DNA of 40,847 nt from a virus, in UHGV virus genome UHGV-0390358; one strand, given 5' to 3'. The notes beneath the pieces are model-generated. The model was not told the DNA's origin. It was given only the letters and a program-made list of their open reading frames with translations, and ran no database searches. This document shows positions 301 through 33,212 of the stretch, piece after piece. The position numbers and the translations under genes were made by a program. Numbering within the stretch: the first letter of the stretch is position 1; every line of letters begins with the position of its first letter.

Positions 301-385
301 TATTCGGAATTGTATTGTTCGGAAGAATAATAAAATAACTAGTTAATTTGTGGATTGGTGCTGTTTTTCCATGATAGGGGTAATT

Positions 386-766
386 ATGAGAAAAGTATTT
401 TTGATTTTTGGATTTATGCTTCTCGTTGGATGCCAGTCAGCTGCACAGTTTGAAAGAAATATGCTTACGTGGCGCGGGCAGAGTATAGACGCAATGGTTC
501 AGCAGTGGGGGTATCCTCAGGGAGAGCTTACATCTCCAGATGGAAACAGAGTGTATGTTTACTCAAGCTCTGGTAGTTATAACGTACCACAAACCACAAC
601 GTATAATACTACGTCTAATCTAATTGGTAATACTATATATTCAAACACATACGCAACAACTGATGGCGGTTATACACTCCATTTCAGTTGCTCTGTTTAC
701 GTTGAGTTTGGTGCTGATAAGATTATTAAAAATGTTACATGGCGCGGTAATAATTGCGTTGCGTGA
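386..766 (+). CDS. Phage-encoded lipoprotein (signal peptide + lipobox LLVGC), unknown function
   Basis: ATG at 386 preceded by AGGGG; N-terminus MRKVFLIFGFMLLVGCQS; AT-rich; followed by terminator. Confidence 0.6.
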   Translation: MRKVFLIFGFMLLVGCQSAAQFERNMLTWRGQSIDAMVQQWGYPQGELTSPDGNRVYVYSSSGSYNVPQTTTYNTTSNLIGNTIYSNTYATTDGGYTLHFSCSVYVEFGADKIIKNVTWRGNNCVA

Positions 767-1012: not shown

Positions 1013-1040
1013 GTCCATAAAAAAGCCCTCAGTGCGGGCT
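1013..1040 (-). terminator. Rho-independent terminator of the two-gene minus-strand operon
   Basis: On minus strand AAGCCC-gcactga-GGGCTT followed by TTTTTAT, immediately after the TAA stop at 1040-1042. Confidence 0.5.
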
Positions 1041-1417
1041 TAATTAACTTCGAGGATAATAGAATCTTTAGACTTGAATCCCACTTTCCTCATGGCTGTA
1101 ATGACGTTTTGGATAACCCACGTTTTCCCAAACTCTCTTTCGTGTACAATGGCGCAAGGAAAATGAAGGGCGCTTTTGTTGCACTTTATGGTGAAAGTTG
1201 TACCTTCAGCAAAATCCAAAACAGTCTGCAGATGTGCAGATATAAACGATTTAAACACATCTTCAAGCTCAGCAAGAGTAATTGGCGGTTTGTTCCTCTC
1301 GTCGTTCAGGCGTTCATATGCTGCGTGAAATGAAAAGTGAATTCTTGCCGCATCTTCTTGCAAGATCTCGTTAATCTCATCCTCAAGATCAATGAGTTGT
1401 TGTTCTGTTATAGACAT
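1040..1417 (-). CDS. Hypothetical protein, 125 aa, acidic N-terminus; second gene of a two-gene operon
   Basis: ATG at 1417 overlaps the upstream gene stop (ATGTCTATAA), indicating translational coupling; ends at terminator. Confidence 0.5.
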   Translation of the reverse strand: MSITEQQLIDLEDEINEILQEDAARIHFSFHAAYERLNDERNKPPITLAELEDVFKSFISAHLQTVLDFAEGTTFTIKCNKSALHFPCAIVHEREFGKTWVIQNVITAMRKVGFKSKDSIILEVN

Positions 1418-1626
1418 AGATAACGGGAGGTCGCCTCACTTATTTTTTGATTTAATTCATCATCATTGGATGCACGTACAGTAGCAACATGCTTACTTTG
1501 GCGTAGGGTCCCAATTCTGATATCAAATTCTTCATTATCGAAAGAGTCAACGAAAACAGCTTTACCAGTTTCTGGATGGTAAAAAGAGGCATAGTTTTGG
1601 TTGAGTTGCATATCAAATTTAAACAT
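1408..1626 (-). CDS. Hypothetical protein, 72 aa; first gene of a two-gene operon
   Basis: Strong ribosome-binding site GGGAGGA 5 nt before ATG at 1626; operator-like palindrome upstream at 1744-1758. Confidence 0.55.
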   Translation of the reverse strand: MFKFDMQLNQNYASFYHPETGKAVFVDSFDNEEFDIRIGTLRQSKHVATVRASNDDELNQKISEATSRYLCL

Positions 1627-1824: not shown

Positions 1825-2511
1825 TCAGAAGACCCCTGCCTTGTCGTTGATGTATTCCGCGTGGGTCTGGATATCACGCAGGCATTTACTCACACCGACG
1901 ATGTAGCAGAACATGGTGGTCAGTTCCGCCGCCGCGCCCGATACGTCGTGCCCGTCTTCCTGTAACTGGTTCAGCAGATTCATCAGCAGTGAGTTCTCCG
2001 TCAGGCCGAGAACACCAGACGGCGAGTGAATCAAACTGCGGTAGCCGGGCTTCAGCGGGGCGCTGTAGGTGTTGTTCTCTATCTTCATTGCCTGCATCAC
2101 TGCTGACGCCGTGGCGTTGGCTACCTGGTCGGCAACCATCTTTATGCGTTCTTCCTGCGGGAGCGAGTTTTTAATGTAACTTCCGGTGCGGCGGATCTGA
2201 GGAAGAACCTCACCCGTAACCCATTTACGAAAGCGGTAGGGGATAGTGCCTGGTGTCACCGCATCGCGGCAGCGGAGGATCAGTGTGTAGAGGCCTGACT
2301 CGTTGATAATATTGGTTTCGCCTTGACGGCCTAAGTTAAATTTAGCCCTTTCATCATCATCAAGAGATTTTATTGACATAGTGGGGTTTGTCAGTTGAAG
2401 AGCTTTAATAACGTCTTTGGCAACAAACCAAGGATTTCCATCAATAACAATGGCTCGAATGGTTGCCTCTGATTCAAAATGAAAAACAGATGGGGTTACG
2501 TTAGCAGTCAT
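1825..2511 (-). CDS. Bro-N domain + KilA-C (phage antirepressor-type) domain protein
   Basis: N-terminal FHFESEATIRAIVIDGNPWFVAKDVIKAL matches the Bro-N signature; C-terminal domain is paralogous to the 3657..3914 protein; start taken at internal ATG 2511 (MTANV...) rather than the ORF-track start 2664. Confidence 0.65.
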   Translation of the reverse strand: MTANVTPSVFHFESEATIRAIVIDGNPWFVAKDVIKALQLTNPTMSIKSLDDDERAKFNLGRQGETNIINESGLYTLILRCRDAVTPGTIPYRFRKWVTGEVLPQIRRTGSYIKNSLPQEERIKMVADQVANATASAVMQAMKIENNTYSAPLKPGYRSLIHSPSGVLGLTENSLLMNLLNQLQEDGHDVSGAAAELTTMFCYIVGVSKCLRDIQTHAEYINDKAGVF

Positions 2512-2905
2512 AGTGATCACCTTTGTAGTTAGGTTAATCACCACTACCGACGCCAATCGGTTGGTGGTGAACTGTGCAGGGTTGGCGTAACCGGCTACAA
2601 AGGACCCGGCGCACCTTTCGGTGCCCCCACACAGCCCACCATAGAATAGGTGCGCTTTACACATAAAAAAACCGCTTATGCGGCATATGTGCCTCTGTAG
2701 TAACCCGGGACGCCAATCCCGGCACTGGATTTTGCCAGTGCCCGATTACTATGGCACAAGAGGAGTGCGATGTAAATTTACCGCAAAGGTAATGATAAGC
2801 GCGAAGAAATATTAAAATCAACCGTATTTGGTTGATTGCGTTTAACGCTTGATCACCTGAAAGCAAGATATTACCTTTAAGGTAATGTTATTGTGAGGAA
2901 AAGCA

Positions 2906-3634
2906 ATGGAAGTTTTCTGGATAGTTGTTGGTGTGGTTGCGGTGATTATTTACGTTATCAACCAGAACAAGACTAAGATCTCTGATCGTACGGTCGTTAA
3001 TCAGAACAAAACGATAAAGACCGAAGATGGGGAGGTAACGATTAGTCGTACACAGGTGATAGAACACACATCTACTCAGTTTCAAAAAACTGGAGGTAAC
3101 GCGCCTGATATTTCCGTACCTCCTGCTTATGATAGTGCGGTAATCCAGACATATTATAAACAGCAGGAGTTTGCAAAAGAGAGGCAACTGATTCAGCCAA
3201 AGCCGTTTACAGCTGAGCTTCCACCTGGAGTGTCAACGCGTCCGGCATATCATGGAAGATTCCCTGGTGATGACATATCGTCTCAGTCATCTAAAAAAGC
3301 ACCTCAGGCAGTATCAGAGCCAGCAAGAATACCTTCTGTATCGCCGCCAAAAGAAGAATCAGCTAACAGAGTTTCAAGTGGCCGCAAGCAGTGTTTGCGA
3401 TGCAGAATAAACCTTCCATATGACAAATTCCGGAAATCGTCAAAAAATCCAGATGGATTGACTAAGTGGTGTGCAAGGTGTCTCGATGGCCCAAAGAATA
3501 CACGCCATATGAAGTGGTGCCCAATTTGTAATGTCCGCAGAAAACGGACCAGCTTTTACCCTAATAATCAAAATGCGGACGGCTTAATGGCATGGTGCAA
3601 AACGTGCTGGGACGAGCACAAAGCGAAACGATAG
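2906..3634 (+). CDS. Membrane-anchored protein with two C-terminal CxxC...CxxC zinc-ribbon-like repeats, unknown function
   Basis: ATG at 2906 with GAGGA ribosome-binding site; N-terminal TM helix; repeats CLRC..DGLTKWCARC and CPIC..DGLMAWCKTC; operator palindrome 2871-2885 immediately upstream. Confidence 0.6.
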   Translation: MEVFWIVVGVVAVIIYVINQNKTKISDRTVVNQNKTIKTEDGEVTISRTQVIEHTSTQFQKTGGNAPDISVPPAYDSAVIQTYYKQQEFAKERQLIQPKPFTAELPPGVSTRPAYHGRFPGDDISSQSSKKAPQAVSEPARIPSVSPPKEESANRVSSGRKQCLRCRINLPYDKFRKSSKNPDGLTKWCARCLDGPKNTRHMKWCPICNVRRKRTSFYPNNQNADGLMAWCKTCWDEHKAKR

Positions 3635-3656
3635 GCCGCTCTTGCGGCCTTTAAAT

Positions 3657-3914
3657 TTACCGGGTTTGTTTTCGTAATTGTTCGGCACAATAGTCGAGAT
3701 GTGTTTGCAGATCCTGCATAGACATCTGTGAGCTGGTGACGTAGTTAATCAGTGCAGTCAGTTCGGCAAGTGGGCCATCGACATTAAATCCATCCTTATC
3801 GAGATCTCGGAGTAATTTCATCAAGTGCGATCCCTCCACCAGTGACCTGACGCCTCCCGGCGTGTGAATCCTTTCGGTAAATCCGTTTTCCAGTGGATAG
3901 TGATACTGCTGCAT
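3657..3914 (-). CDS. Stand-alone KilA-C-like small protein; candidate SOS-inducible antirepressor
   Basis: Paralogous to the C-terminus of the 1825..2511 protein (HTPGGVRSLVEGSHLMKLLRDL... versus HSPSGVLGLTENSLLMNLLNQL...); GGAG ribosome-binding site favours the ATG at 3914 over 3929; LexA box 6 bp upstream. Confidence 0.6.
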   Translation of the reverse strand: MQQYHYPLENGFTERIHTPGGVRSLVEGSHLMKLLRDLDKDGFNVDGPLAELTALINYVTSSQMSMQDLQTHLDYCAEQLRKQTR

Positions 3915-3934
3915 CTTAATCTTCTCCATGCAAT

Positions 3935-3954
3935 AACTGTATATTTATACAGTA
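3935..3954. promoter_or_regulatory. LexA (SOS) box
   Basis: AACTGTATATTTATACAGTA, CTGT-N8-ACAG with AT-rich spacer, 15 of 16 core positions matching the E. coli consensus; overlaps a TATAAA -10-like hexamer of the leftward promoter. Confidence 0.7.
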
Positions 3955-4110: not shown

Positions 4111-7100
4111 ATGACGGTCTCAACCGAAGTTGACCACAACGAATACACCGGTAACGGCGTTACGACATCGTTTCCGTATACTTTTCGAATTTTCAGAAAA
4201 TCAGACCTGGTTGTTCAGGTGTCTGACCTGAACGGGAACGTAACAGAATTGGTTCTGGATACCGGTTATACGGTAACTGGGGCGGGCACTTATAGTGGCG
4301 GTTCTGTGGTTCTTCCGTCTCCGCTTGCTACTGGATGGCGAATTACGATAGATCGTGTGCTTGATGTAGTGCAGGAGACAGACCTTCGCAATCAGGGAAA
4401 ATTTTTCCCCGAAGTGCATGAAGATGCCTTTGACTACCTGACGATGCTGATCCAGCAATGTTTTGGGTGGTTCAGACGTGCATTGATGAAACCATCTTTG
4501 CTTGCAAAATATTACGATGCAAAGCAAAACAAAATTTCTAACCTTGCAGATCCATCATTTGAGCAGGACGCTGTAAATAATCGCTCAATGCGTAATTATG
4601 TCGATGCTGCAATCGCCGGGGTTGTTGGTGGTTTTGGTTGGTTTATTCAGTATGGTTCTGGGGCTGTGTACCGAACGTTCCAGGATAAAATGCGTGATGC
4701 TATTAGCCCCAAAGATTTTGGAGCTGTTGGTGATGGTATAAATGACGATTCCACTGCAATAAGCGCGTGCCTTGAAGCCTCATCTCCAGTTTATAAAATT
4801 GACGGATTAGGGCTTACTTTTAAAGTATCAACTCTTCCGGATGTCAGTCGATTTAAAAATGCTCGTTTTTTATTTGAGAGAATACCGGGTCAGCCTCTTT
4901 TTTATGCTTCTGAAGATTTTATCCAGGGAGAGTTATTTAAAATTACAGATACACCGTGGTACAACGCCTGGACGCAGGATAAAACGTTTGTATATGACAA
5001 TGTCATCTATGCGCCTTTTATGGCTGGAGACCGCCATGGTGTAAATAACCTCCATGTTGCATGGGTTCGCTCAGGAGATGACGGGAAGACCTGGACAACG
5101 CCGGAATGGCTTACAGATTTACATGAAAACTATCCCACAGTTAACTATCACTGCATGTGTATGGGGGTTGTCAGAAATCGCCTTTTTGCTGTAATTGAGA
5201 CGCGGACCGTGAGCGGAAATAAACTGCAGGTTGCAGAGTTGTGGGATCGCCCAATGAGTCGCAGCCTTCGCGTTTATGGTGGTATAACGAAAGCAGCAAA
5301 TCAGCAAGTCGCTTATATTCGCATTACTGATCACGGATTATTTGCTGGTGATTTTGTCAACTTCTCAAACTCTGGTGTTACAGGTGTTACCGGGAATATG
5401 ACGGTGACTACTGTTATTGATAAAAATACTTTTACAGTTACGACGCAAAATACCCAGGATGTGGATCAGAATAACGAGGGTAGATACTGGAGTTTTGGTA
5501 CATCATTTCACTCTTCACCATGGAGAAAAACCAGTCTTGGAACTATTCCTTCTTTTGTTGACGGAAGCACTCCTGTTACTGAGATTCACAGTTTTGCGAC
5601 GATTAGCGATAACAGTTTTGCTGTTGGCTACCATAATGGTGATATTGGTCCACGCGAGCTTGGGATACTCTATTTCTCTGATGCTTTCGGTTCTCCTGGT
5701 AGCTTTGTTCGCAGACGCATACCTGCAGAATATGAGGCGAATGCATCTGAGCCATGTGTAAAATATTATGATGGCATTCTGTATCTGACGACCAGGGGGA
5801 CATTAAGTACTCAACCCGGTAGTTCATTGCACAGAAGCTCTGATTTAGGTACATCATGGAATTCTCTTCGCTTCCCAAATAATGTTCATCACTCAAACCT
5901 TCCTTTTGCCAAAGTTGGCGATGAGCTGATTATTTTTGGCAGTGAGCGCGCATTTGGTGAGTGGGAAGGAGGAGAGCCTGATAACCGTTATGCAGGAAAT
6001 TATCCAAGAACATTTATGACCAGAGTTAACGTCAATGAGTGGAGTCTGGATAATGTAGAGTGGGTTAATGTTACTGATCAGATTTATCAGGGCGGAATAG
6101 TTAACTCTGCGGTTGGTGTTGGTTCAGTTTGTATCAAAGACAACTGGCTGTACTACATTTTCGGTGGGGAAGACTTTCTAAACCCATGGAGCATAGGGGA
6201 TAACAACAGAAAATATCCTTATGTTCACGATGGTCACCCGGCTGATTTGTATTGTTTCAGGGTGAAAATTAAACAGGAAGAATTTGTTTCAAGGGATTTT
6301 GTCTACGGAGCCACTCCTAACAGAACGCTTCCTACTTTTATGTCGACGTCAGGCGTGAGGACGGTTCCTGTACCCGTTGATTTCACAGATGATGTTGCCG
6401 TCCAGTCACTGACTGTCCATGCAGGTACATCAGGACAAGTTCGCGCGGAAGTCAAACTTGAGGGTAATTACGCCATTATTGCGAAGAAAGTACCGTCTGA
6501 TGATGTTACCGCTCAGAGATTAATCGTTAGCGGCGGTGAAACAACGTCTTCAGCAGATGGTGCAATGATAACGTTGCATGGTTCCGGAAGCAGTACTCCA
6601 CGTCGCGCGGTATATAACGCACTCGAACATCTTTTTGAGAACGGAGATGTTAAACCTTATCTTGATAATGTAAATGCTCTTGGTGGTCCGGGAAACAGGT
6701 TCTCGACAGTTTATCTTGGCTCCAATCCTGTGGTTACCAGTGACGGAACATTAAAGACAGAGCCGGTCTCTCCTGACGAAGCATTGCTGGATGCCTGGGG
6801 TGACGTCAGGTATATCGCTTATAAATGGCTGAACGCTGTCGCTATAAAGGGGGAAGAAGGGGCGAGGATACATCATGGTGTAATCGCGCAGCAACTTCGT
6901 GATGTTCTTATTTCTCACGGACTCATGGAAGAAGAAAGCACAACATGCCGCTATGCCTTTCTTTGCTATGACGATTATCCCGCAGTATATGATGACGTCA
7001 TTACTGGCCAAAGGGAAATGCCGCTGACTGATAATGACGGGAGCATCATTGTTGATGAGGATGATAATCCAGTGATGGTAATGGAAGACATCATTGAGCG

Positions 7101-7230
7101 CGTTGAAATAACGCCAGCAGGATCTAGATGGGGGGTCAGACCTGATCTCTTATTCTATATCGAGGCAGCATGGCAGCGCAGAGAAATGGATAAGATAAAA
7201 GAGCGGATTCAGTCTCTGGAAGAACGTTAA
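4111..7230 (+). CDS. Tailspike endosialidase (endo-N-acetylneuraminidase) with C-terminal intramolecular chaperone domain
   Basis: 1039 aa; conserved podovirus tailspike N-terminal head-binding region; sialidase Asp-boxes SGDDGKTW and SSDLGTSW; C-terminal HGVIAQQLRDV... autoproteolytic chaperone-type domain. Confidence 0.85.
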   Translation: MTVSTEVDHNEYTGNGVTTSFPYTFRIFRKSDLVVQVSDLNGNVTELVLDTGYTVTGAGTYSGGSVVLPSPLATGWRITIDRVLDVVQETDLRNQGKFFPEVHEDAFDYLTMLIQQCFGWFRRALMKPSLLAKYYDAKQNKISNLADPSFEQDAVNNRSMRNYVDAAIAGVVGGFGWFIQYGSGAVYRTFQDKMRDAISPKDFGAVGDGINDDSTAISACLEASSPVYKIDGLGLTFKVSTLPDVSRFKNARFLFERIPGQPLFYASEDFIQGELFKITDTPWYNAWTQDKTFVYDNVIYAPFMAGDRHGVNNLHVAWVRSGDDGKTWTTPEWLTDLHENYPTVNYHCMCMGVVRNRLFAVIETRTVSGNKLQVAELWDRPMSRSLRVYGGITKAANQQVAYIRITDHGLFAGDFVNFSNSGVTGVTGNMTVTTVIDKNTFTVTTQNTQDVDQNNEGRYWSFGTSFHSSPWRKTSLGTIPSFVDGSTPVTEIHSFATISDNSFAVGYHNGDIGPRELGILYFSDAFGSPGSFVRRRIPAEYEANASEPCVKYYDGILYLTTRGTLSTQPGSSLHRSSDLGTSWNSLRFPNNVHHSNLPFAKVGDELIIFGSERAFGEWEGGEPDNRYAGNYPRTFMTRVNVNEWSLDNVEWVNVTDQIYQGGIVNSAVGVGSVCIKDNWLYYIFGGEDFLNPWSIGDNNRKYPYVHDGHPADLYCFRVKIKQEEFVSRDFVYGATPNRTLPTFMSTSGVRTVPVPVDFTDDVAVQSLTVHAGTSGQVRAEVKLEGNYAIIAKKVPSDDVTAQRLIVSGGETTSSADGAMITLHGSGSSTPRRAVYNALEHLFENGDVKPYLDNVNALGGPGNRFSTVYLGSNPVVTSDGTLKTEPVSPDEALLDAWGDVRYIAYKWLNAVAIKGEEGARIHHGVIAQQLRDVLISHGLMEEESTTCRYAFLCYDDYPAVYDDVITGQREMPLTDNDGSIIVDEDDNPVMVMEDIIERVEITPAGSRWGVRPDLLFYIEAAWQRREMDKIKERIQSLEER

Positions 7231-14840: not shown

Positions 14841-14917
14841 TTACCGTTAAGGTAATAATTATGCTTATTTGGTTTGGTGTCAATAGATATGAGTTAAAAA
14901 AATTACCCGTAAGGTAA
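14841..14917. promoter_or_regulatory. Leftward early promoter region with two TTACC-N5-GGTAA operator palindromes
   Basis: TTACCgttaaGGTAA at 14841-14855 and TTACCcgtaaGGTAA at 14903-14917, between repressor terminator and first leftward gene. Confidence 0.55.
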
Positions 14918-14974: not shown

Positions 14975-15559
14975 TTATTGTTTGCTTTTTTCGTTCTGGT
15001 TGATGACAAATTCAATGTAACTTTCGATCTTTGCTTTCTCGGTTTCGGGTAACAATGCGTAGCGTGAGCGGTCATAGTTGATAGTCGCAGGGTCGTGCGG
15101 GTGAATCAGTAGTTCATATCCGTGACGCCCGAATGCGGATGCAACATTCTCCAGGGTGGAAATGGAAACGCTGACCTCATTGTTTAACAGGCGGCTGATT
15201 GTCACCTGGGCGACGCCGGATGCGCGGTGAAGTTTTCCCTGTGTTGAAAGGTCGCGGCTTTCGCTCATCCAGCGTTCCAGGTTGTGAGCCGCCAGCTGAC
15301 CTATATCGCTCGGGCCGACAGGCTGAAAACCCTCCTGAGAAAGCGAACGATCAATATCAAGCCAGTTACGGGGTTTATTGGCGGCAGCTTCAATTTTTCG
15401 TGCAACCTGGTCGCCGATAACCTTCTTGCCAAGAGCCCAGCGGTTTACCAGATTTGCCTGAGTTCCAAGTTTTTCTGCCATCCGCGTCTGAACACCATTG
15501 AATTCACGGTCGATCAAGTCGTTGAGATTTTGCCTGCGGACGTCCTGGATACTTTTCAT
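14975..15559 (-). CDS. Prophage repressor with two tandem XRE-type HTH domains and no peptidase S24 autocleavage domain
   Basis: 194 aa; HTH-like segments QTRMAEKLGTQANLVNRWALGK and VAQVTISRLLNNEVSVSISTLENVASAFG; divergent from Cro-like gene across an operator-containing region. Confidence 0.7.
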   Translation of the reverse strand: MKSIQDVRRQNLNDLIDREFNGVQTRMAEKLGTQANLVNRWALGKKVIGDQVARKIEAAANKPRNWLDIDRSLSQEGFQPVGPSDIGQLAAHNLERWMSESRDLSTQGKLHRASGVAQVTISRLLNNEVSVSISTLENVASAFGRHGYELLIHPHDPATINYDRSRYALLPETEKAKIESYIEFVINQNEKSKQ

Positions 15560-19491: not shown

Positions 19492-20670
19492 ATGACCACT
19501 TTTACCGACAAAGAACTGATTAAAGAAATCAAAGAGCGCATCAGCAGCCTGGACGTGCGAGACAATATTGAGCGCCGTGCTTATGAAATTGCTCTGGCAT
19601 CGCTGGAAGCAGAACCGGTGGCGTGGGAATGCGGTGAAAACATAATTTTGTTTAACCCTGACACAGTTGAAGCATACGCAAAACGTGCGGAGATAACACC
19701 TAAGCCACTATTCTCCGCGCCGCCAGCGCCGATGGCTGCGCCGGAGAAATGCCCGGCAGAAATTCGAGAGCTGATGTCGTCGCATTCTGACGATCTCTTC
19801 AACGATGAAGACGCTCAGGAGATTTGGAACACCTGCCGCGCCGCTATGCTTCAGTCCGGAAACTTTCGGGAAAACAAGAATTCGTCAACCAATAATTTTC
19901 GAGAAATCGCGGAAACGTCAACCAACTATCCGGCAATTCCTAGTGAGGTGTTGTCCGCAATCCTGAAGGTTGCCAGGATTCGTGCCGATTTCGATGATTT
20001 TGACGGTGACAGGCGAGGTATCGGTGATTGTCTGGATGAGGCTGAGCAAGAGCTTATCGTTACCATTAACAAATATGCCAGTCAGTTGGCAGTAGTACCT
20101 GTTGGGCTTGATGAACGTGCAGCTTTCAATGCCTGGAATAACGACGAGAACCTCCCCATAGCTGGTGTTGGCGCAAAAAACGCTGCCTGGTTAGCCTGGC
20201 AAGCCCGCGCTGAGTTGGGTCGCTCGTTAGCCGTAAACTCTCCGGTAATTCCGGATGGTTTATCCACGGTATGCGCTGAGGCTTATCAGGTTGTAGGAGT
20301 TATGGCAGATGCGCTTGGTGTATTCGGTGATGCAGCAGTACAGAAAGTTCTGGATAACCTGTCACAGCAAAAACTTGTTCACAGAGATGTGCTGCCGTTC
20401 TCGCTTCCGGTAACTCCGGATGGTTGGGTTATAGTGCCGAAGAAACTAACCGCTGAGAACGGCGCTAAGGGTGTGCTATCCGGTGAATTTTCAGAAACTA
20501 CGTTTATAAGCTGCCCGGAATGCTTTGGCGATGATGATTGCGATACCTGTGACGGGAGCGGACGAATTGAAATTAAAGTACCAGTCACGTGGACGACCAT
20601 AAAATCCATCTGGGATAAAGGTATTGCGCATTTTGCAGCAAAACCGCCGCAGGAGGTTAACCGTGGCTAA
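19492..20670 (+). CDS. Hypothetical protein with C-terminal DnaJ-type CxxCxGxG zinc-finger motif
   Basis: 392 aa; C-terminal CPECFGDDDCDTCDGSG. Confidence 0.45.
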   Translation: MTTFTDKELIKEIKERISSLDVRDNIERRAYEIALASLEAEPVAWECGENIILFNPDTVEAYAKRAEITPKPLFSAPPAPMAAPEKCPAEIRELMSSHSDDLFNDEDAQEIWNTCRAAMLQSGNFRENKNSSTNNFREIAETSTNYPAIPSEVLSAILKVARIRADFDDFDGDRRGIGDCLDEAEQELIVTINKYASQLAVVPVGLDERAAFNAWNNDENLPIAGVGAKNAAWLAWQARAELGRSLAVNSPVIPDGLSTVCAEAYQVVGVMADALGVFGDAAVQKVLDNLSQQKLVHRDVLPFSLPVTPDGWVIVPKKLTAENGAKGVLSGEFSETTFISCPECFGDDDCDTCDGSGRIEIKVPVTWTTIKSIWDKGIAHFAAKPPQEVNRG

Positions 20671-24530: not shown

Positions 24531-24607
24531 TGGCGTGGCATGCAGGATTCGAACCTGCGACCAACCGCTTAGAAGGCGGTTGCTCTGTCCAACTGAGCTA
24601 ATGCCAC
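24531..24607 (-). tRNA. tRNA-Arg (anticodon UCU)
   Basis: Reverse complement folds as a 77-nt cloverleaf: 7-bp acceptor stem GTGGCAT/ATGCCAC, D-arm GCTC..GAGC, anticodon loop CTTCTAA, T-arm GCAGG-TTCGAAT-CCTGC, 3' CCA; differs from E. coli argU in the acceptor stem. Confidence 0.9.
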
Positions 24608-30741: not shown

Positions 30742-33212
30742 TGGCTATCAGTTGGATCCAGCCCAGCTTTGCTGGTGGTGAGATTGGACCGTCGTTGTAC
30801 GGACGTATCGACATGGCGAAGTACCAGGTGGCATTGCGCAAGTGCGATAATTTTATCGTGCGGCAGTATGGCGGCGTTGAGAATCGACCTGGTACGCGTT
30901 TTGTCGGTGCCGCCAAATACCCAAATCGGAAATGCCGTCTGATCCCGTTCCAGTTCTCGACGGTTCAGACTTATGCTCTGGAGTTCGGACACCAGTACAT
31001 GCGCGTTATCAAAGATGGTGCGTTGGTGCTGAACAGCAGCAATGTTATTTATGAAATTGCCACGCCATATACTGAAGCCGATCTGTTCCGAATTAAATTC
31101 ACGCAAAGTGCCGACGTGCTTACGCTGGTTCACCCGGCATACCCGCCGAAAGAGTTGCGCCGATATGCTCATGACAACTGGCAACTGGTTGATGTGGTAA
31201 CGAAGAACGGGCCATTTGAAGATATCAATATTGACGAGTCAGTGACGGTTTATGCCAGCGCCAGCACCGGGACAATTACGTTAACGGCAAGCGCCTCTAT
31301 TTTTGGCGCGGAGCAGGTAGGCAAATTGTTCTATCTGGAACAGCCTGCAGTGGATTCAGTGCCGGTATGGGAAACCAGTAAGAGTACGTCGATTGGCGAT
31401 ATTCGCCGTGCAGACAGTAACTACTATCGCGCCGTTACAGCAGGCAAAACAGGCACTTTGCGCCCTTCGCATACAGAAGGCACATCATGGGATGGCTGGG
31501 GCGGATCCGGTGATGATGATACCGGCATTGAGTGGGAGTATCTGCACAGTGGTTTTGGCATTGCCCGTATCTCTGCTGCAAATGGAACTACTGCAACTGC
31601 CGAGGTGATTTCCTATATCCCTTCGCAGGTAGTTGGCGAGGATAATGCCAGCTATAAATGGGCTAAATATGCCTGGAACAGTATTAACGGTTATCCTGGC
31701 ACTGTTGTTTATTATCAACAACGTCTTTACTTCGCCGCATCGACTGCGTTCCCTCAGACTATCTGGGCCAGCCGTACTGGGGATTATAAGGATTTTGGCA
31801 AAAGCAATCCTACGCAGGATGACGACAGAATTATCTACACCTATGCCGGGCGTCAGGTTAATGAGATCCGCCACCTGATTGATGTCGGTTCGCTGGTGGC
31901 GCTGACTTCCGGAGGTGAGTACGTCATCACCGGCGACCAGAACAAAGTGTTAACCCCATCATCATTTGCATTCAGCTCTCAGGGATCAAATGGCTCGAGC
32001 AATGTCCCACCAATTGCCGTGGCGAATATTGCTCTGTTCGTCCAGGAGAAAGGCAGTGTTGTCCGTGATCTGGCCTACTCATTCGATGTTGACGGCTATC
32101 AGGGGAACGACCTGACCATCCTTGCCAATCATCTTTTTCAGAAGCACAGCATTGTTGACTGGTGCTTCTCGATAGTCCCTTACTCCAGCGCCTTCTGCAT
32201 TCGTGATGACGGTAAATTACTGGTGATGACCTATTTGCGTGATCAGCAGGTTTTTGCATGGGCACCACAATCCAGTACTGGAAAATATGAAAGCACATGC
32301 AGTATCAGCGAAGGCAATGAAGATGCGGTGTATTTCGTCGTTAACCGAACCGTTAACGGGCAAACAGTGAGATACATCGAGCGACTGTCCAGCCGTTTAT
32401 TTACCAGCGATGAAGATGCTTTCTTTGTTGATTCTGGCCTTAGCTATGATGGAAGAAATACGTCTGACAGAACGATGATCATCACTGGTGGTTCTGGCGA
32501 ATGGGATTACCGCGCGGAATATACAATCAGTGTTTCTGGTGGTGCGTACTTCACCAGTAGTGATGTCGGCGCGCAACTACAGTTCCCTTATACCGGAACT
32601 GATCCTGATACTGGCGATGAGGTGTCAAAAGAATTACGTTGCGACATTATTTCTGTAACCAGCAATACCGCTGTAGTGGTTCGTGCTAACAGGAACGTCC
32701 CGCCATCCCTCAGGAATGTGGCCACCACGAACTGGCAGATGGCGCGCCGGACATTTGGAGGCCTGTCTCATCTTGAAGGCCAGACCGTAAACATTCTCTC
32801 TGATGCGAACGTGGAACCACAGAAAGTGGTTTCCGGAGGTGCCGTCACGCTGGAATCTCCGGGGGCTGTAGTGCACATCGGCCTGCCAATAACTGCTGAA
32901 TTCGAAACACTGGATATCAACATTAACGGACAGGAAACGCTACTGGACAAAAAACAGGTGATCCCCTCCGTTACTCTGGTTGTGAATGCCAGTCGCGGCA
33001 TCTGGGCGACTACGCCCGGCGGTAAATGGTACGAATATCCACAGCGTGAATTCGAGTTCTACGATGATCCTGTTGATGATGCTACCGGAAAAGTAGAAGT
33101 GAAACTGGACAGTAACTGGGGCAAAAACGGACGTGCAAAAATCCGTCAGCTTGATCCGTTGCCGCTGTCTGTTCTTGCCGTTATTCCTCGCCTTACTGTT
33201 GGGGGGTTCTGA
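30741..33212 (+). CDS. Tail tubular protein B / nozzle (T7 gp12-like)
   Basis: 823 aa; N-terminus MAISWIQPSFAGGEIGP resembles T7 gp12 start; position. Confidence 0.6.
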   Translation: MAISWIQPSFAGGEIGPSLYGRIDMAKYQVALRKCDNFIVRQYGGVENRPGTRFVGAAKYPNRKCRLIPFQFSTVQTYALEFGHQYMRVIKDGALVLNSSNVIYEIATPYTEADLFRIKFTQSADVLTLVHPAYPPKELRRYAHDNWQLVDVVTKNGPFEDINIDESVTVYASASTGTITLTASASIFGAEQVGKLFYLEQPAVDSVPVWETSKSTSIGDIRRADSNYYRAVTAGKTGTLRPSHTEGTSWDGWGGSGDDDTGIEWEYLHSGFGIARISAANGTTATAEVISYIPSQVVGEDNASYKWAKYAWNSINGYPGTVVYYQQRLYFAASTAFPQTIWASRTGDYKDFGKSNPTQDDDRIIYTYAGRQVNEIRHLIDVGSLVALTSGGEYVITGDQNKVLTPSSFAFSSQGSNGSSNVPPIAVANIALFVQEKGSVVRDLAYSFDVDGYQGNDLTILANHLFQKHSIVDWCFSIVPYSSAFCIRDDGKLLVMTYLRDQQVFAWAPQSSTGKYESTCSISEGNEDAVYFVVNRTVNGQTVRYIERLSSRLFTSDEDAFFVDSGLSYDGRNTSDRTMIITGGSGEWDYRAEYTISVSGGAYFTSSDVGAQLQFPYTGTDPDTGDEVSKELRCDIISVTSNTAVVVRANRNVPPSLRNVATTNWQMARRTFGGLSHLEGQTVNILSDANVEPQKVVSGGAVTLESPGAVVHIGLPITAEFETLDININGQETLLDKKQVIPSVTLVVNASRGIWATTPGGKWYEYPQREFEFYDDPVDDATGKVEVKLDSNWGKNGRAKIRQLDPLPLSVLAVIPRLTVGGF

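What the first reader, a model, noticed from the sequence alone, without database searches (positions are those of the whole stretch)
1825..2511. Second, full-length Bro-N + KilA-C protein paralogous to the LexA-controlled one
The C-terminal about 60 residues of this protein align by eye with the small 3657..3914 protein, so the element carries two KilA-C modules, one fused to a Bro-N DNA-binding domain and one free. The two flank the membrane zinc-ribbon gene. They may target different repressors (anti-immunity against heteroimmune phages) or act as a regulated pair.
Basis: partly seen in the sequence, partly recalled or inferred. Interest (0 to 1): 0.5.

Follow-up and report, generated by a model that had tools for sequence, protein, structure and literature searches.

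The report
RNA-gated second antirepressor of an E. coli phage
This temperate E. coli phage carries two copies of one repressor-disabling domain, a small free protein switched on by DNA damage and a larger fusion protein held in check by an antisense RNA; the design is neat, but it is built from parts that are already known.

Summary
Gene 1825..2511(-) encodes a 228-aa protein with an N-terminal Bro-N domain. Its last ~80 residues are 40% identical (E 1e-20) to the small protein 3657..3914(-).

The shared domain is not KilA-C: no member hits Pfam ANT even at E<=10. It is the Ant antirepressor of Salmonella phage SPC32H (PDB 5D50_E). The small protein matches it at E 8e-47, the fused domain at 1e-13. 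The window also encodes the matching Rep repressor (14975..15559).

The two paralogues have different controls:
- **Small ant:** it sits behind a perfect LexA box (3937-3952).
- **Fusion gene:** it sits behind a P1-immI/Gifsy-1-type RNA cassette, PisrK - IsrK - C4 antisense RNA. The a/b recognition elements covary three ways across nine phages, and the a2 target covers the gene's Shine-Dalgarno sequence.
- **Promoter PisrK:** a TTACC-N5-GGTAA palindrome, the probable Rep operator (16 sites against 0.7 expected), abuts it.

The same C-terminal module is fused elsewhere to AntA, pRha, ORF6N or P22_AR_N, under sar or sRNA-Xcc1 RNAs. The ZX5 orthologue, when overexpressed, reduces lysogeny (PMC9782041).

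Verdict: an orthologue of a tested antirepressor, now with a mechanistic reading. Moderate interest.

The parts
1825..2511 (-). Gene for the 228-aa Bro-N::Ant-like antirepressor (stop codon included)
   Evidence: ORF and start context. The start at 2511 is conserved in 11 relatives, whereas the 51-aa upstream extension is not. The gene is intact and under purifying selection in 10 lineages. phrog_130 'anti-repressor Ant', E 1e-56.
2200..2460 (-). Bro-N domain (residues 18-104)
   Evidence: Pfam PF02498, 71.7 bits, E 8e-20. The AF2 model is confident here, pLDDT 80-90.
1843..2070 (-). C-terminal SPC32H-Ant-like domain (residues 148-223)
   Evidence: phmmer against PDB 5D50_E 'Anti-repressor protein', E 1.4e-13. 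40% identical to the small Ant, E 1e-20. phrog_450, E 9e-36. No KilAC hit.
2520..2528 (-). a2 target of the C4 RNA (CTACAAAGG). It overlaps the Shine-Dalgarno sequence and ends 8 nt before the ATG.
   Evidence: Complementary to a' (CCTTTGTAG). It covaries with a' and a1 across 9 phages.
2550..2556 (-). b2 target of the C4 RNA (TTGGCGT)
   Evidence: Complementary to b' (ACGCCAA). 4 of 7 pairs show compensatory changes.
2560..2646 (-). C4 antisense RNA gene (a' loop 2595-2603, b' segment 2582-2588)
   Evidence: Rfam RF01695, 79.5 bits against gathering 45, full-length. The MFE fold equals the Rfam consensus. Stems covary.
2665..2741 (-). IsrK sRNA, carrying the a1 (2692-2700) and b1 (2710-2716) elements and an intrinsic terminator (2671-2684 plus a T run)
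   Evidence: Rfam RF01394, 74.7 bits against gathering 50. c4-a1b1 RF03163, 44.1 bits, just under gathering 46.7. b1/b' paired in 100% of cells, with 4 of 7 pairs compensatory. Terminator.
2748..2776 (-). Putative promoter PisrK (-35 TTTACA, 17 nt spacer, TG-extended -10 CATAGT)
   Evidence: Consensus scan. Its position puts the transcription start at the 5' end of the IsrK match. It is conserved in alignment A1.
2778..2792 (.). TTACC-N5-GGTAA palindrome abutting the -35 of PisrK; probable Rep operator
   Evidence: 16 sites with <=1 mismatch against 0.67 expected. The sites cluster around rep/cro. The half-sites are invariant and the spacer is free in all relatives.
3657..3914 (-). Small free Ant (85 aa), orthologue of SPC32H Ant
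   Evidence: phmmer against PDB 5D50_E, E 7.6e-47 over residues 2-84. 88% identical to the SPC32H ant gene product.
3937..3952 (.). LexA box CTGTATAAATATACAG, 22 nt upstream of the small ant ATG
   Evidence: Exact CTGT-N8-ACAG with an AT-rich spacer. An exact box is in the same place in 8 of the 9 phage relatives, including SPC32H; Kp4865-1 has none there.
14975..15559 (-). Rep repressor (194 aa), the presumed target of both Ant-domain proteins
   Evidence: phmmer against PDB 5D50_A 'Repressor', E 3.5e-42 over the full length. Palindromes lie at 14841, 14903, 15615 and 15663 around it.

Best explanation
**What it is.** Gene 1825..2511(-) encodes a second, modular antirepressor of an epsilon15/phiV10-like (Uetakevirus) temperate phage. 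It has three parts:
- a Bro-N domain;
- a variable helical linker;
- a C-terminal ~80-residue domain that is an old paralogue of the phage's small SOS-controlled Ant.

**How the known paralogue works.** In phage SPC32H, Ant is a tetramer. It binds Rep dimers and breaks up the DNA-binding Rep tetramer.

**Inferred action.** The fused protein most likely inactivates the phage's own SPC32H-type Rep (14975..15559) through this domain.

**How the two copies differ.** The difference lies in control.
- The free Ant is transcribed when LexA is cleaved.
- The fusion gene lies behind a P1-immI / Gifsy-1-isrK type RNA cassette. Promoter PisrK, flanked by a probable Rep operator, makes IsrK, which carries a1/b1 and mostly terminates.
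- Read-through transcripts carry the C4 antisense RNA, with elements a'/b'.
- C4 pairs with a2/b2 in the leader. Because a2 covers the Shine-Dalgarno sequence, translation is blocked while C4 is in excess.
- Translation would be allowed on fresh infection, when IsrK titrates C4, or when the incoming phage has a different a/b specificity from the resident prophage.

**Roles.** The small Ant would serve SOS induction. The fusion would serve the lysis-lysogeny decision at infection or superinfection (anti-immunity), and possibly positive feedback once Rep is removed.

**Shown here.** The homologies, the RNA elements and their covariation, the LexA box, and the enrichment of the palindrome.

**Inferred.** Rep binding by the fused domain, that the palindrome is Rep's operator, and the timing of expression.
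For: **Homology**
- The C-terminal domain matches the PDB 5D50_E antirepressor at E 1.4e-13 and the small Ant at E 1e-20.
- The small Ant matches 5D50_E at E 7.6e-47, and Rep matches 5D50_A at E 3.5e-42.
- A citing paper summarises Ant as a tetramer that binds two Rep dimers and breaks the Rep tetramer (PMC9638917).

**Co-occurrence**
- All 18 phage records with a full-length match to the fusion also hold the small Ant.
- In 6 of 6 enterobacterial species genomes that carry the fusion, the tandem order is LexA-box region, small ant, palindrome, isrK/C4 leader, Bro-N::Ant. An exact LexA box is found in 3 of the 6.
- The small Ant can occur alone, as in SPC32H, epsilon15, Citrobacter braakii and Pseudocitrobacter.

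**Selection**
- Both domains are under purifying selection. dN/dS is 0.04-0.25 for the Ant-like domain and 0.1-0.4 for Bro-N.

**RNA control**
- Rfam finds C4 at 79.5 bits and isrK at 74.7 bits.
- a1/a'/a2 and b1/b'/b2 covary three ways, with 3 b-types and 3 a-types among 9 phages. 0 of 500 shuffles reach the observed score, and register slides drop pairing from 96-99% to 30-46%.
- a2 ends 8 nt before the ATG and includes the SD.
- The same isrK-C4 cassette precedes Gifsy-1 anrP. There, IsrK supplied in trans activates anrP translation 140-fold (PMC4825925).
- P1 Ant is controlled by C1, the C4 RNA and Icd (PMC8201110).

**Operator**
- The palindrome has 16 sites against 0.67 expected. Sites lie around rep/cro and at PisrK, and they are conserved in all relatives.

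**Modularity**
- The same C-terminal module is fused to AntA, pRha, ORF6N and P22_AR_N, always at the C-terminus.
- Two further fused copies also lie right behind Rfam-matched RNAs: sar in TL-2011b, and sRNA-Xcc1 in HEMP4.

**Experiment in a close relative**
- ZX5 ORF4 is 81% identical overall and 98% identical in the C-terminal domain, and the Rep is 99.5% identical.
- Overexpressing it lowered lysogens from 1e9 to 1e6 PFU/mL and cut repressor mRNA by 75% (PMC9782041).
Against: - No direct evidence that the fused domain binds Rep or forms tetramers.
- It is only ~40% identical to the small Ant, and the central motif differs (DGHDVSGAAAEL against DGFNVDGPLAEL).
- AF2 gave low confidence for this domain (pLDDT 33-52), so its fold could not be compared with 5D50.
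- Ant and Rep identities do not track each other: the small Ant is 88% identical between this window and SPC32H, but the Reps are only 44% identical. Specificity therefore cannot be read from covariation.
- The phiV10 copy is frameshifted, so the gene is dispensable at least there.
- SPC32H switches between lysogeny and lysis without such a gene.
- The ZX5 experiment used GST-tagged overexpression and does not show the mechanism.
- The identity of the protein that binds the palindrome was not established here, because the SPC32H primary papers are not in the held library.
Confidence: 0.6

Rival explanations
1. The fused protein is an anti-immunity factor aimed at a different repressor from the one the small Ant hits (heteroimmune phages), so the two paralogues have diverged in target rather than only in regulation.
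For: - The paralogues are only ~40% identical in every genome, so the duplication is old.
- Subfamily-specific motifs exist.
- The fused-type module is 90-98% identical across E. coli phages and travels between N-terminal domains and loci as a cassette.
- Trans-acting antirepressors that cross-induce other prophages are known in Salmonella (Lemire 2011, as summarised in PMC7380047).
Against: - The module is found only in genomes that also carry the small Ant. An SPC32H-type Rep was found in all seven complete relatives that carry the module.
- Only 57 clusters in 1.84 billion proteins match the domain, so the family is narrow.
- Overexpressing the ZX5 orthologue antagonises lysogeny of ZX5 itself, whose Rep is 99.5% identical to the window's (PMC9782041).
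- All these phages share one operator palindrome, so there is little room for 'different' repressors inside the group.
Confidence: 0.15
2. The Ant-like domain serves in the fusion only as an oligomerisation (tetramerisation) module. The active part would be the N-terminal DNA-binding domain, making the protein a transcription or replication regulator rather than a Rep binder.
For: - Free Ant is a tetramer (PMC9638917).
- Bro-N, AntA and pRha are proposed DNA-binding domains, and the AntA domain of Listeria AriS has a phage-specific regulatory activity of its own (PMC9043618).
- The Bro-N domain is under purifying selection.
- Foldseek gives a weak resemblance to SKI/Dachshund DNA-binding domains (E 0.03, not significant).
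Against: - Five unrelated N-terminal domains are exchanged in front of a constant C-terminal module. That marks the C-terminal domain as the common effector.
- Polar residues are invariant across the free and fused subfamilies: H22, D46, E56, Y63, T76 and H77 of the domain. This goes beyond what a coiled-coil-like oligomeriser would need.
- In AriS-like proteins the constant C-terminal domain carries the conserved activity.
Confidence: 0.12
3. The fusion modulates the small Ant by forming mixed oligomers with it, either as a dominant negative or by tethering it to DNA. It would tune SOS induction rather than act on Rep by itself.
For: - The two proteins share a homologous tetramer-forming domain.
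- They are encoded next to each other in nearly all genomes.
- In Kp4865-1 the small Ant carries the fused-type central motif, which hints at exchange between the paralogues.
Against: - 40% identity is low for mixed assembly.
- The two are expressed under different conditions (LexA against C4).
- Overexpressing the ZX5 orthologue promotes the lytic outcome rather than blocking it.
Confidence: 0.05
4. The real product is the 279-aa ORF (1825..2664), and the upstream conserved sequence is protein-coding (an orf45-type leader peptide fused in frame) rather than an RNA regulator.
For: - Gene callers report the 279-aa form on many contigs (P0001 and others).
- In Gifsy-1, orf45 is translated and coupled to anrP, and a fused 287-aa form is reported for Shigella dysenteriae (PMC4825925).
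Against: - The in-frame extension exists only in this window and its near-identical relative. In 10 other relatives the frame closes within 4-28 codons.
- Substitutions in the region are RNA-compensatory, and one-base indels in a' and a2 shift the frame.
- The region is a full-length C4 match at 79.5 bits.
Confidence: 0.05

Closest known systems
SPC32H Ant / Rep antirepression system (Kim & Ryu 2013 J Virol; Kim et al. 2016 PNAS; PDB 5D50, 5D4Z)
   Same: - The small gene 3657..3914 is an orthologue (88% identical), with the same LexA box position.
- The window's Rep is a homologue.
- The C-terminal domain of the Bro-N protein belongs to the same domain family (E 1.4e-13).
   Different: - SPC32H has only the free 86-aa Ant and no fused paralogue.
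- Here the domain is appended to Bro-N, is about 40% diverged, has no LexA box, and is controlled by RNA.
- Tetramer formation and Rep binding by the fused form are untested.
vB_EcoP_ZX5 ORF4 'anti-repressor' (PMC9782041)
   Same: - It is a direct orthologue: 81% identical overall and 98% in the C-terminal domain.
- The Rep is the same (99.5% identical) and the isrK/C4 leader is the same.
- Overexpression reduces lysogeny.
   Different: - The authors recognised only the Bro-N domain.
- The small Ant was left as 'hypothetical'.
- The C4 RNA region was annotated as an 'ash family protein' CDS.
- The ZX5 C4 a-type differs by one base from the window's.
P1/P7 immI operon (c4 antisense RNA - icd - ant; Citron & Schuster 1990)
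   Same: - A C4-family RNA with a'/b' loops, a1/b1 upstream and a2/b2 downstream over a ribosome-binding site.
- The main repressor also controls the operon (Op51 in P1; the palindrome here).
- The a/b sequences differ between related phages.
   Different: - There is no icd-like gene for translational coupling; a2 covers the antirepressor's own SD.
- Homology to P1 Ant was not tested; the C-terminal effector here belongs to the SPC32H Ant family.
- The host phage is an integrating podovirus rather than a plasmid prophage.
Gifsy-1 isrK-orf45-anrP-isrJ locus (Hershko-Shalev 2016, PMC4825925)
   Same: - The same isrK + C4 cassette by Rfam.
- IsrK terminates, with partial read-through into an antirepressor gene.
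- Translation is silent unless IsrK acts in trans.
   Different: - AnrP is an ORF6N protein with no detectable similarity to this one.
- The orf45 reading frame is not conserved here.
- No isrJ was found in this window.
AriS-like and other Bro-N/AntA/pRha + KilAC (ANT) two-domain phage regulators (PMC9043618)
   Same: The same modular logic: a constant C-terminal effector domain behind interchangeable Bro-N, AntA or pRha N-terminal domains.
   Different: - The C-terminal domain here is not KilAC (no PF03374 hit at E<=10).
- AriS KilAC inhibits the SOS response, whereas this domain family disables a repressor.
P22 immI (arc - sar RNA - ant)
   Same: In relative TL-2011b, a third copy of the same C-terminal module is fused to P22_AR_N and sits behind an Arc-like gene and a sar RNA match.
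   Different: That arrangement is absent from this window. P22 Ant's own C-terminal part belongs to a different family.

Membership tests
BRO family, N-terminal domain (Pfam PF02498) | Match to the Bro-N profile above the gathering score | tested here: met
   71.7 bits against 25.6, E 8e-20, profile positions 2-96 of 96.
KilA-C / ANT domain (Pfam PF03374) | Match of the C-terminal domain to the ANT/KilAC profile | tested here: not met
   No hit at E<=1 for the full protein or the small protein. No hit at E<=10 for any of 11 free or fused domain sequences.
SPC32H Ant antirepressor family (PDB 5D50 chain E) | Sequence homology to SPC32H Ant over the whole ~80-residue domain | tested here: met
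   Fused domain residues 148-223 against chain residues 4-79, E 1.4e-13. Small protein E 7.6e-47.
SPC32H Ant antirepressor family (PDB 5D50 chain E) | Free-standing protein of ~86 aa expressed from a LexA-repressed promoter | tested here: not met
   - The 1825..2511 product is a 228-aa fusion.
- The only nearby one-mismatch box (2619-2634, CGGTGCCCCCACACAG) is GC-rich and lies inside the C4 gene.
- The small gene 3657..3914 does meet this feature.
SPC32H Ant antirepressor family (PDB 5D50 chain E) | Encoded in a genome with an SPC32H-type two-domain Rep | tested here: met
   Rep 14975..15559 against 5D50_A, E 3.5e-42. An SPC32H-type Rep is encoded in all nine fetched phage records.
SPC32H Ant antirepressor family (PDB 5D50 chain E) | Forms a tetramer that binds Rep dimers and releases them from DNA | not testable with these tools
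   - Only monomer AF2 is available, and the C-terminal domain came out at pLDDT 33-52.
- Foldseek was uninformative.
- Indirect support: overexpression of the ZX5 orthologue.
P1-type immI (C4 antisense RNA-controlled antirepressor operon) | C4 RNA gene upstream of the antirepressor, on the same strand | tested here: met
   RF01695, 79.5 bits against gathering 45, positions 1-87 of 87, at 2560-2646(-).
P1-type immI (C4 antisense RNA-controlled antirepressor operon) | a1/b1 elements upstream and a2/b2 elements downstream, complementary to the a'/b' of C4, with the downstream set over a ribosome-binding site | tested here: met
   - Elements located.
- Pairing 96-99% of cells; 0 of 500 shuffles reach the covariation score; register slides collapse the pairing.
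- a2 overlaps the SD.
- Rfam c4-a1b1 scores 44.1, just below gathering 46.7.
P1-type immI (C4 antisense RNA-controlled antirepressor operon) | An icd-like upstream ORF whose translation is coupled to ant | tested here: not met
   No conserved ORF lies between C4 and the ant start. The upstream frame closes within 4-28 codons in 10 of 12 genomes.
P1-type immI (C4 antisense RNA-controlled antirepressor operon) | Operon promoter also controlled by the primary repressor (Op51 in P1) | tested here: inconclusive
   A conserved TTACC-N5-GGTAA palindrome abuts the -35 of PisrK. That Rep binds it is inferred from the clustering of sites at rep/cro and was not shown.
Gifsy-1 isrK-orf45-anrP locus | IsrK sRNA with its terminator directly upstream of the leader | tested here: met
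   RF01394, 74.7 bits against gathering 50. Terminator at 2671-2684. The same cassette is found in Gifsy-1.
Gifsy-1 isrK-orf45-anrP locus | Antirepressor homologous to AnrP (STM2616) | tested here: not met
   BLASTP E 4.3. AnrP is an ORF6N protein.

The most novel reading that the evidence does not exclude
Uetakevirus-type temperate phages run a two-channel antirepression system built from one Rep-dismantling domain.
- One copy is free and gated by LexA, for SOS induction.
- One or more copies are fused to interchangeable N-terminal domains (Bro-N, AntA, pRha, ORF6N, P22_AR_N) and gated by small-RNA cassettes (IsrK/C4, sar, possibly sRNA-Xcc1).

The covarying a/b loops of C4 would form a second, RNA-encoded immunity specificity. 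That specificity differs among phages whose Rep is 99-100% identical. Phages that are homoimmune at the repressor could then still escape or break each other's lysogeny, a P1/P7-like bipartite immunity not described for this group.
Probability: 0.35. Interest if true: 0.6.

Novelty: new member of a known kind. Interest (0 to 1): 0.38.

Why it matters
- **It gives a mechanism to a widely annotated protein.** 'Bro-N anti-repressor' proteins are common in enterobacterial prophages. Here the C-terminal ~80 residues are the Rep-dismantling Ant domain, which has a crystal structure. No Pfam, NCBIfam or PADLOC model covers this domain.
- **It links three lines of work.** SPC32H Ant/Rep, P1 immI C4 RNA and Gifsy-1 IsrK come together in one locus.
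- **It makes a prediction that can be tested directly.** Phages with identical repressors but different C4 a/b types should be heteroimmune at a second level.
- **It flags an annotation error.** Public gene calls often run a 279-aa ORF, or an 'ash family' CDS, across the C4 RNA gene.

Tried and rejected
1. **KilA-C identity of the shared domain: rejected.** No PF03374 hit at E<=10 for 11 sequences.
2. **Fold confirmation: failed.**
   - The AF2 model from a 27-sequence alignment gave pLDDT 33-52 for the C-terminal domain.
   - Foldseek against the PDB found nothing at E<=0.001. The best hits were SKI/Dachshund domains for the Bro-N part, at E 0.03.
3. **Inferring the target from Ant/Rep co-variation: uninformative.** The small Ant is 88% identical between this window and SPC32H, while the Reps are only 44% identical.
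4. **Whole-sequence RNA duplex energies against shuffles: not discriminating.** C4 x leader gave -38.3 against -31.7±4.6 kcal/mol. Covariation was used instead.
5. **Homology to Gifsy-1 AnrP: none**. Only the RNA cassette is shared.
6. **Primary SPC32H papers: not held** (J Virol 2013, PNAS 2016).
   - Rep-contact residues of Ant and the published operator sequence could not be mapped.
   - Statements about LexA control in SPC32H and about the Ant tetramer rest on citing papers and on my recollection of the abstracts.
7. **NCBIfam and PADLOC scans of both Ant proteins and the neighbouring accessory genes: no hits**.
8. **The 279-aa ORF as the true product: rejected**.
9. **A LexA box for the fusion gene: rejected.** The only one-mismatch candidate lies inside the C4 gene and is GC-rich.
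Full report
**What the window is.** The first 4.2 kb match epsilon15/phiV10-like temperate podophages of E. coli (Uetakevirus), including TL-2011b, phiV10, ZX5 and Phi05_1387 B. The finding lies in the variable accessory region between the last virion gene and the tail-fibre gene (4111..7230). In SPC32H, that region holds only a small membrane-protein gene and the ant gene.

**Checking the observation.**
- The ORF 1825..2511(-) encodes 228 aa. It has a good Shine-Dalgarno sequence (AAAGGTGA) 4 nt upstream of ATG 2511.
- Pfam finds Bro-N at 71.7 bits (cut-off 25.6) and nothing else.
- BLASTP of this protein against the product of 3657..3929(-) gives one ungapped 82-residue alignment at 40% identity, E 1e-20.
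- The true start of the small gene is ATG 3914, preceded by GGAG.
- The exact LexA box CTGTATAAATATACAG lies at 3937-3952.
- The zinc-ribbon membrane gene 2906..3634(+) does lie between the two genes.

**What the shared domain is.**
- It is not KilA-C. Neither protein hits PF03374 at E<=1, and none of 11 free or fused copies does at E<=10.
- Against PDB sequences, the small protein matches chain E of 5D50, 'Anti-repressor protein', at E 7.6e-47 over residues 2-84. That chain is the Ant of Salmonella phage SPC32H.
- Residues 148-223 of the Bro-N protein match the same chain at E 1.4e-13.
- The window also encodes the partner. ORF 14975..15559(-) matches 5D50 chain A, 'Repressor', at E 3.5e-42 over its full length.
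- A review states that Ant is made after LexA self-cleavage (PMC7380047). This agrees with my recollection of Kim & Ryu 2013. The primary papers are not in the held library.
- Pfam, NCBIfam and PADLOC have no model for this domain. PHROGs has it as phrog_450, 'unknown function'.

**How the fusion gene is controlled.** Rfam finds two full-length RNA genes directly upstream on the same strand. These are C4 antisense RNA at 2560-2646 (79.5 bits, gathering 45) and IsrK at 2665-2741 (74.7 bits, gathering 50). There is also a near-threshold match to the a1/b1 target motif.
- *The extended ORF.* The 279-aa ORF that gene callers often report overlaps C4. Its in-frame extension exists only here and in one near-identical phage. 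I treat 2511 as the start.
- *The conserved leader.* I aligned the ~290-nt leader from nine phages (A1).
  - The C4 a' loop (CCTTTGTAG) is complementary to a2 (CTACAAAGG, 2520-2528). That element ends 8 nt before the ATG and includes the SD. The loop is also complementary to a1 inside IsrK.
  - The b' segment (ACGCCAA) is complementary to b2 (2550-2556) and to b1.
- *Covariation.* The three copies of each element change together.
  - The b-types are GGCGT, GGTCT and GAGAC. The a-types are CAAAGG, AAAGG and AGTGG.
  - Pair counts give 96-99% standard pairs.
  - Compensatory changes occur in 4 of 7 b pairs.
  - 0 of 500 shuffles reach the observed covariation score.
  - Pairing collapses to 30-46% when the register is slid.
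  - With nine related sequences the shuffle control is not a probability, but the register control and the three-way pattern are convincing.
- *Promoter and terminator.* A sigma-70-like promoter (TTTACA, 17 nt spacer, TG-CATAGT) ends 7 nt before the IsrK 5' end. IsrK ends in a terminator.

**Known systems with this layout.**
- *P1 immI.* This is the architecture of P1 immI, where Ant expression is controlled by C1, the C4 RNA and Icd (PMC8201110).
- *Gifsy-1.* It is also the architecture of the Gifsy-1 isrK locus. Rfam finds isrK, C4 and isrJ around anrP in Gifsy-1, so the published 'orf45' region coincides with the C4 match. There the long transcript is translationally silent, and IsrK supplied in trans activates anrP translation 140-fold (PMC4825925).
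- *What is shared.* AnrP itself is an unrelated ORF6N protein. Only the RNA cassette is shared.

**A probable Rep operator.** The palindrome TTACC-N5-GGTAA occurs 16 times with <=1 mismatch, against 0.67 expected.
- Sites flank rep/cro at 14841, 14903, 15615 and 15663.
- One site abuts the -35 of PisrK (2778-2792).
- Other sites precede the zinc-ribbon gene (2871), lie between the small ant and the tail-fibre gene (3992), and follow the fusion gene (1744).
- The same palindrome, with invariant half-sites and a free spacer, is present at corresponding places in most relatives, including SPC32H.
- I infer that it is the Rep operator, and that PisrK is Rep-controlled in the way P1's immI promoter is C1-controlled. 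This was not shown here.

**Comparative picture: small Ant and fusion.**
- The small Ant occurs in 35 phage records.
- Full-length Bro-N::Ant occurs in 18 records, all of which also have the small Ant.
- The Salmonella phages SPC32H, SPN1S and epsilon15 have only the small Ant.
- Among the ten loci found in 185,579 species-representative genomes, six enterobacterial genera show the tandem order palindrome, LexA-box region (an exact box in three of the six), small ant, palindrome, isrK/C4 leader, Bro-N::Ant.
- Of the other four loci, two have the small Ant alone, and two distant ones pair Bro-N with only a weak match to the domain.
- In the window and in TL-2011b, an ~0.85-kb insertion carrying the zinc-ribbon gene separates the two units.
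- Within every genome the free and fused domains are 40-50% identical, so the duplication is old.
- Both domains of the fusion evolve under purifying selection. dN/dS is 0.04-0.25 for the Ant-like part. Many dS values are saturated, so these numbers are rough.
- The phiV10 copy is frameshifted.

**Comparative picture: the module is mobile.**
- A profile search of 1.84 billion representative proteins finds only 57 clusters at E<=0.001, so the family is small. The domain is C-terminal in all eight multi-domain hits listed.
- Its N-terminal partners are:
  - Bro-N;
  - AntA (phiv142-3 Orf8, behind the same isrK/C4 leader, and a second HEMP4 gene);
  - pRha;
  - ORF6N;
  - P22_AR_N (TL-2011b gp42).
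- Between the window and TL-2011b, dS is 0.69 in the N-terminal domain but only 0.05-0.15 in the linker and C-terminal domain. That is a recombination mosaic.
- TL-2011b gp42 sits behind an Arc-like gene and a sar RNA match (44.8 bits, gathering 43).
- The HEMP4 AntA fusion sits directly behind an sRNA-Xcc1 match (62.9 bits, gathering 53).
- Three fused copies therefore lie directly behind Rfam-matched RNA genes, while the free copy is under LexA control.
- The modular logic mirrors AriS-like proteins, where a constant KilAC domain follows AntA, Bro-N or pRha (PMC9043618).

**Direct experimental support.** ZX5 ORF4 is the orthologue. It is 81% identical overall and 98% identical in the C-terminal domain, and its Rep is 99.5% identical. 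Overexpressing it lowered lysogens from 1e9 to 1e6 PFU/mL and cut repressor mRNA by 75% (PMC9782041). The authors noted only the Bro-N domain and called the mechanism a mystery.

**Most likely mechanism.**
- The fused protein disables Rep through its Ant-like domain.
- It is translated only when C4 does not cover its SD. That would be early after infection of a cell without C4, when IsrK titrates C4, or when the resident prophage's C4 has a different a/b type.
- The small Ant answers DNA damage.
- After Rep is removed, PisrK would also be derepressed, which could reinforce the switch.
- Six phages with 99-100% identical Rep fall into four a/b combinations. The C4 cassette may therefore act as a second immunity determinant, as in P1/P7.
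- These functional steps are inferences.

**What could not be settled.**
- *Binding and assembly.* Whether the fused domain binds Rep, forms tetramers, or mixes with the small Ant remains open. AF2 gave low confidence for that domain, and Foldseek gave nothing significant.
- *Target specificity.* Ant and Rep identities do not track each other, so target specificity cannot be inferred from sequence.

**Verdict.**
- The domain label is wrong.
- The 'regulated pair' idea is right, and can now be stated precisely.
- The gene is an orthologue of an already tested antirepressor, assembled from known parts.
- The mechanistic reading and the RNA-specificity prediction are modestly new.

Noticed in passing
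window 1744, 2778, 2871, 3992, 9587, 14841, 14903, 15615, 15663, 16000, 17908, 17970, 21361, 21379, 24312, 24930: The palindrome TTACC-N5-GGTAA occurs 16 times (<=1 mismatch) against 0.67 expected. Pairs spaced 62 bp apart recur here (14841/14903, 17908/17970) and at matching places in phiV10, SPC32H and Kp4865-1. This looks like a genome-wide Rep regulon with paired operators suited to a tetrameric repressor.
   Followed up: partly
window 2801-3656 (gene 2906..3634 +): The membrane protein with two CxxC zinc-ribbon pairs sits on an ~0.85-kb insertion. Its family hits are phrog_6762, plus weak Stc1, endonuclease VII and Lar-like matches. In phiV10, ZX5 and Tyrion the small ant is directly followed by isrK. 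The insertion has its own palindrome at 2871 and shares a bidirectional terminator (3633-3650) with the small ant. TL-2011b carries a decayed copy.
   Followed up: partly
window 1040..1417(-) and 1408..1626(-): Two small overlapping genes of unknown function (phrog_14518, phrog_14630) lie downstream of the antirepressor, behind their own palindrome at 1744. TL-2011b has a YafO-family toxin gene at the equivalent place. They have no Pfam, NCBIfam or PADLOC hits.
   Followed up: partly
L004 (TL-2011b) 31060-32244; L006 (HEMP4) 1600-2387: Relatives carry a third Ant-domain gene. TL-2011b has Arc-like - sar RNA - P22_AR_N::Ant. HEMP4 has AntA::Ant next to the integrase, directly behind an sRNA-Xcc1 match (62.9 bits). 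Whether sRNA-Xcc1 acts like C4 on this gene was not examined.
   Followed up: partly
L002 (phiV10) 19551-20230: The phiV10 Bro-N antirepressor gene is split by a frameshift into PhiV10p23 and PhiV10p22, which cuts the Ant-like domain. The type phage of the group probably lacks a working copy.
   Followed up: no
L007 (Kp4865-1) 35433-35684: The small Ant of this Klebsiella phage carries the fused-type central motif DGHDVSGAAAEL instead of DGFNVDGPLAEL. This hints at gene conversion between the two paralogues. No exact LexA box was found upstream of this copy.
   Followed up: no
window 2512-2664; L009 (ZX5) 1779-1892: Public gene calls often run across the C4 RNA gene. A 279-aa version of the antirepressor is reported on many contigs (P0001 alone on 83), and ZX5 carries an 'ash family protein' CDS there. 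These are probably misannotations.
   Followed up: yes
window 4111..7230 (+): The tail-fibre gene encodes 1039 aa and is the same length as ZX5 ORF7, which its authors describe as having a T7-like N-terminus and an endosialidase middle part. This suggests specificity for a sialic-acid capsule.
   Followed up: no
window 24534-24607 (-): A tRNA gene (Rfam, 73.3 bits) lies in the early structural region. SPC32H and phiv142-3 carry a tRNA-Arg at the matching place.
   Followed up: no
window 350..766 (+): A small ORF with a lipoprotein-like signal (…LLVGC, phrog_3716, unknown function) lies just after the last virion gene. It is another accessory gene of this variable region.
   Followed up: no
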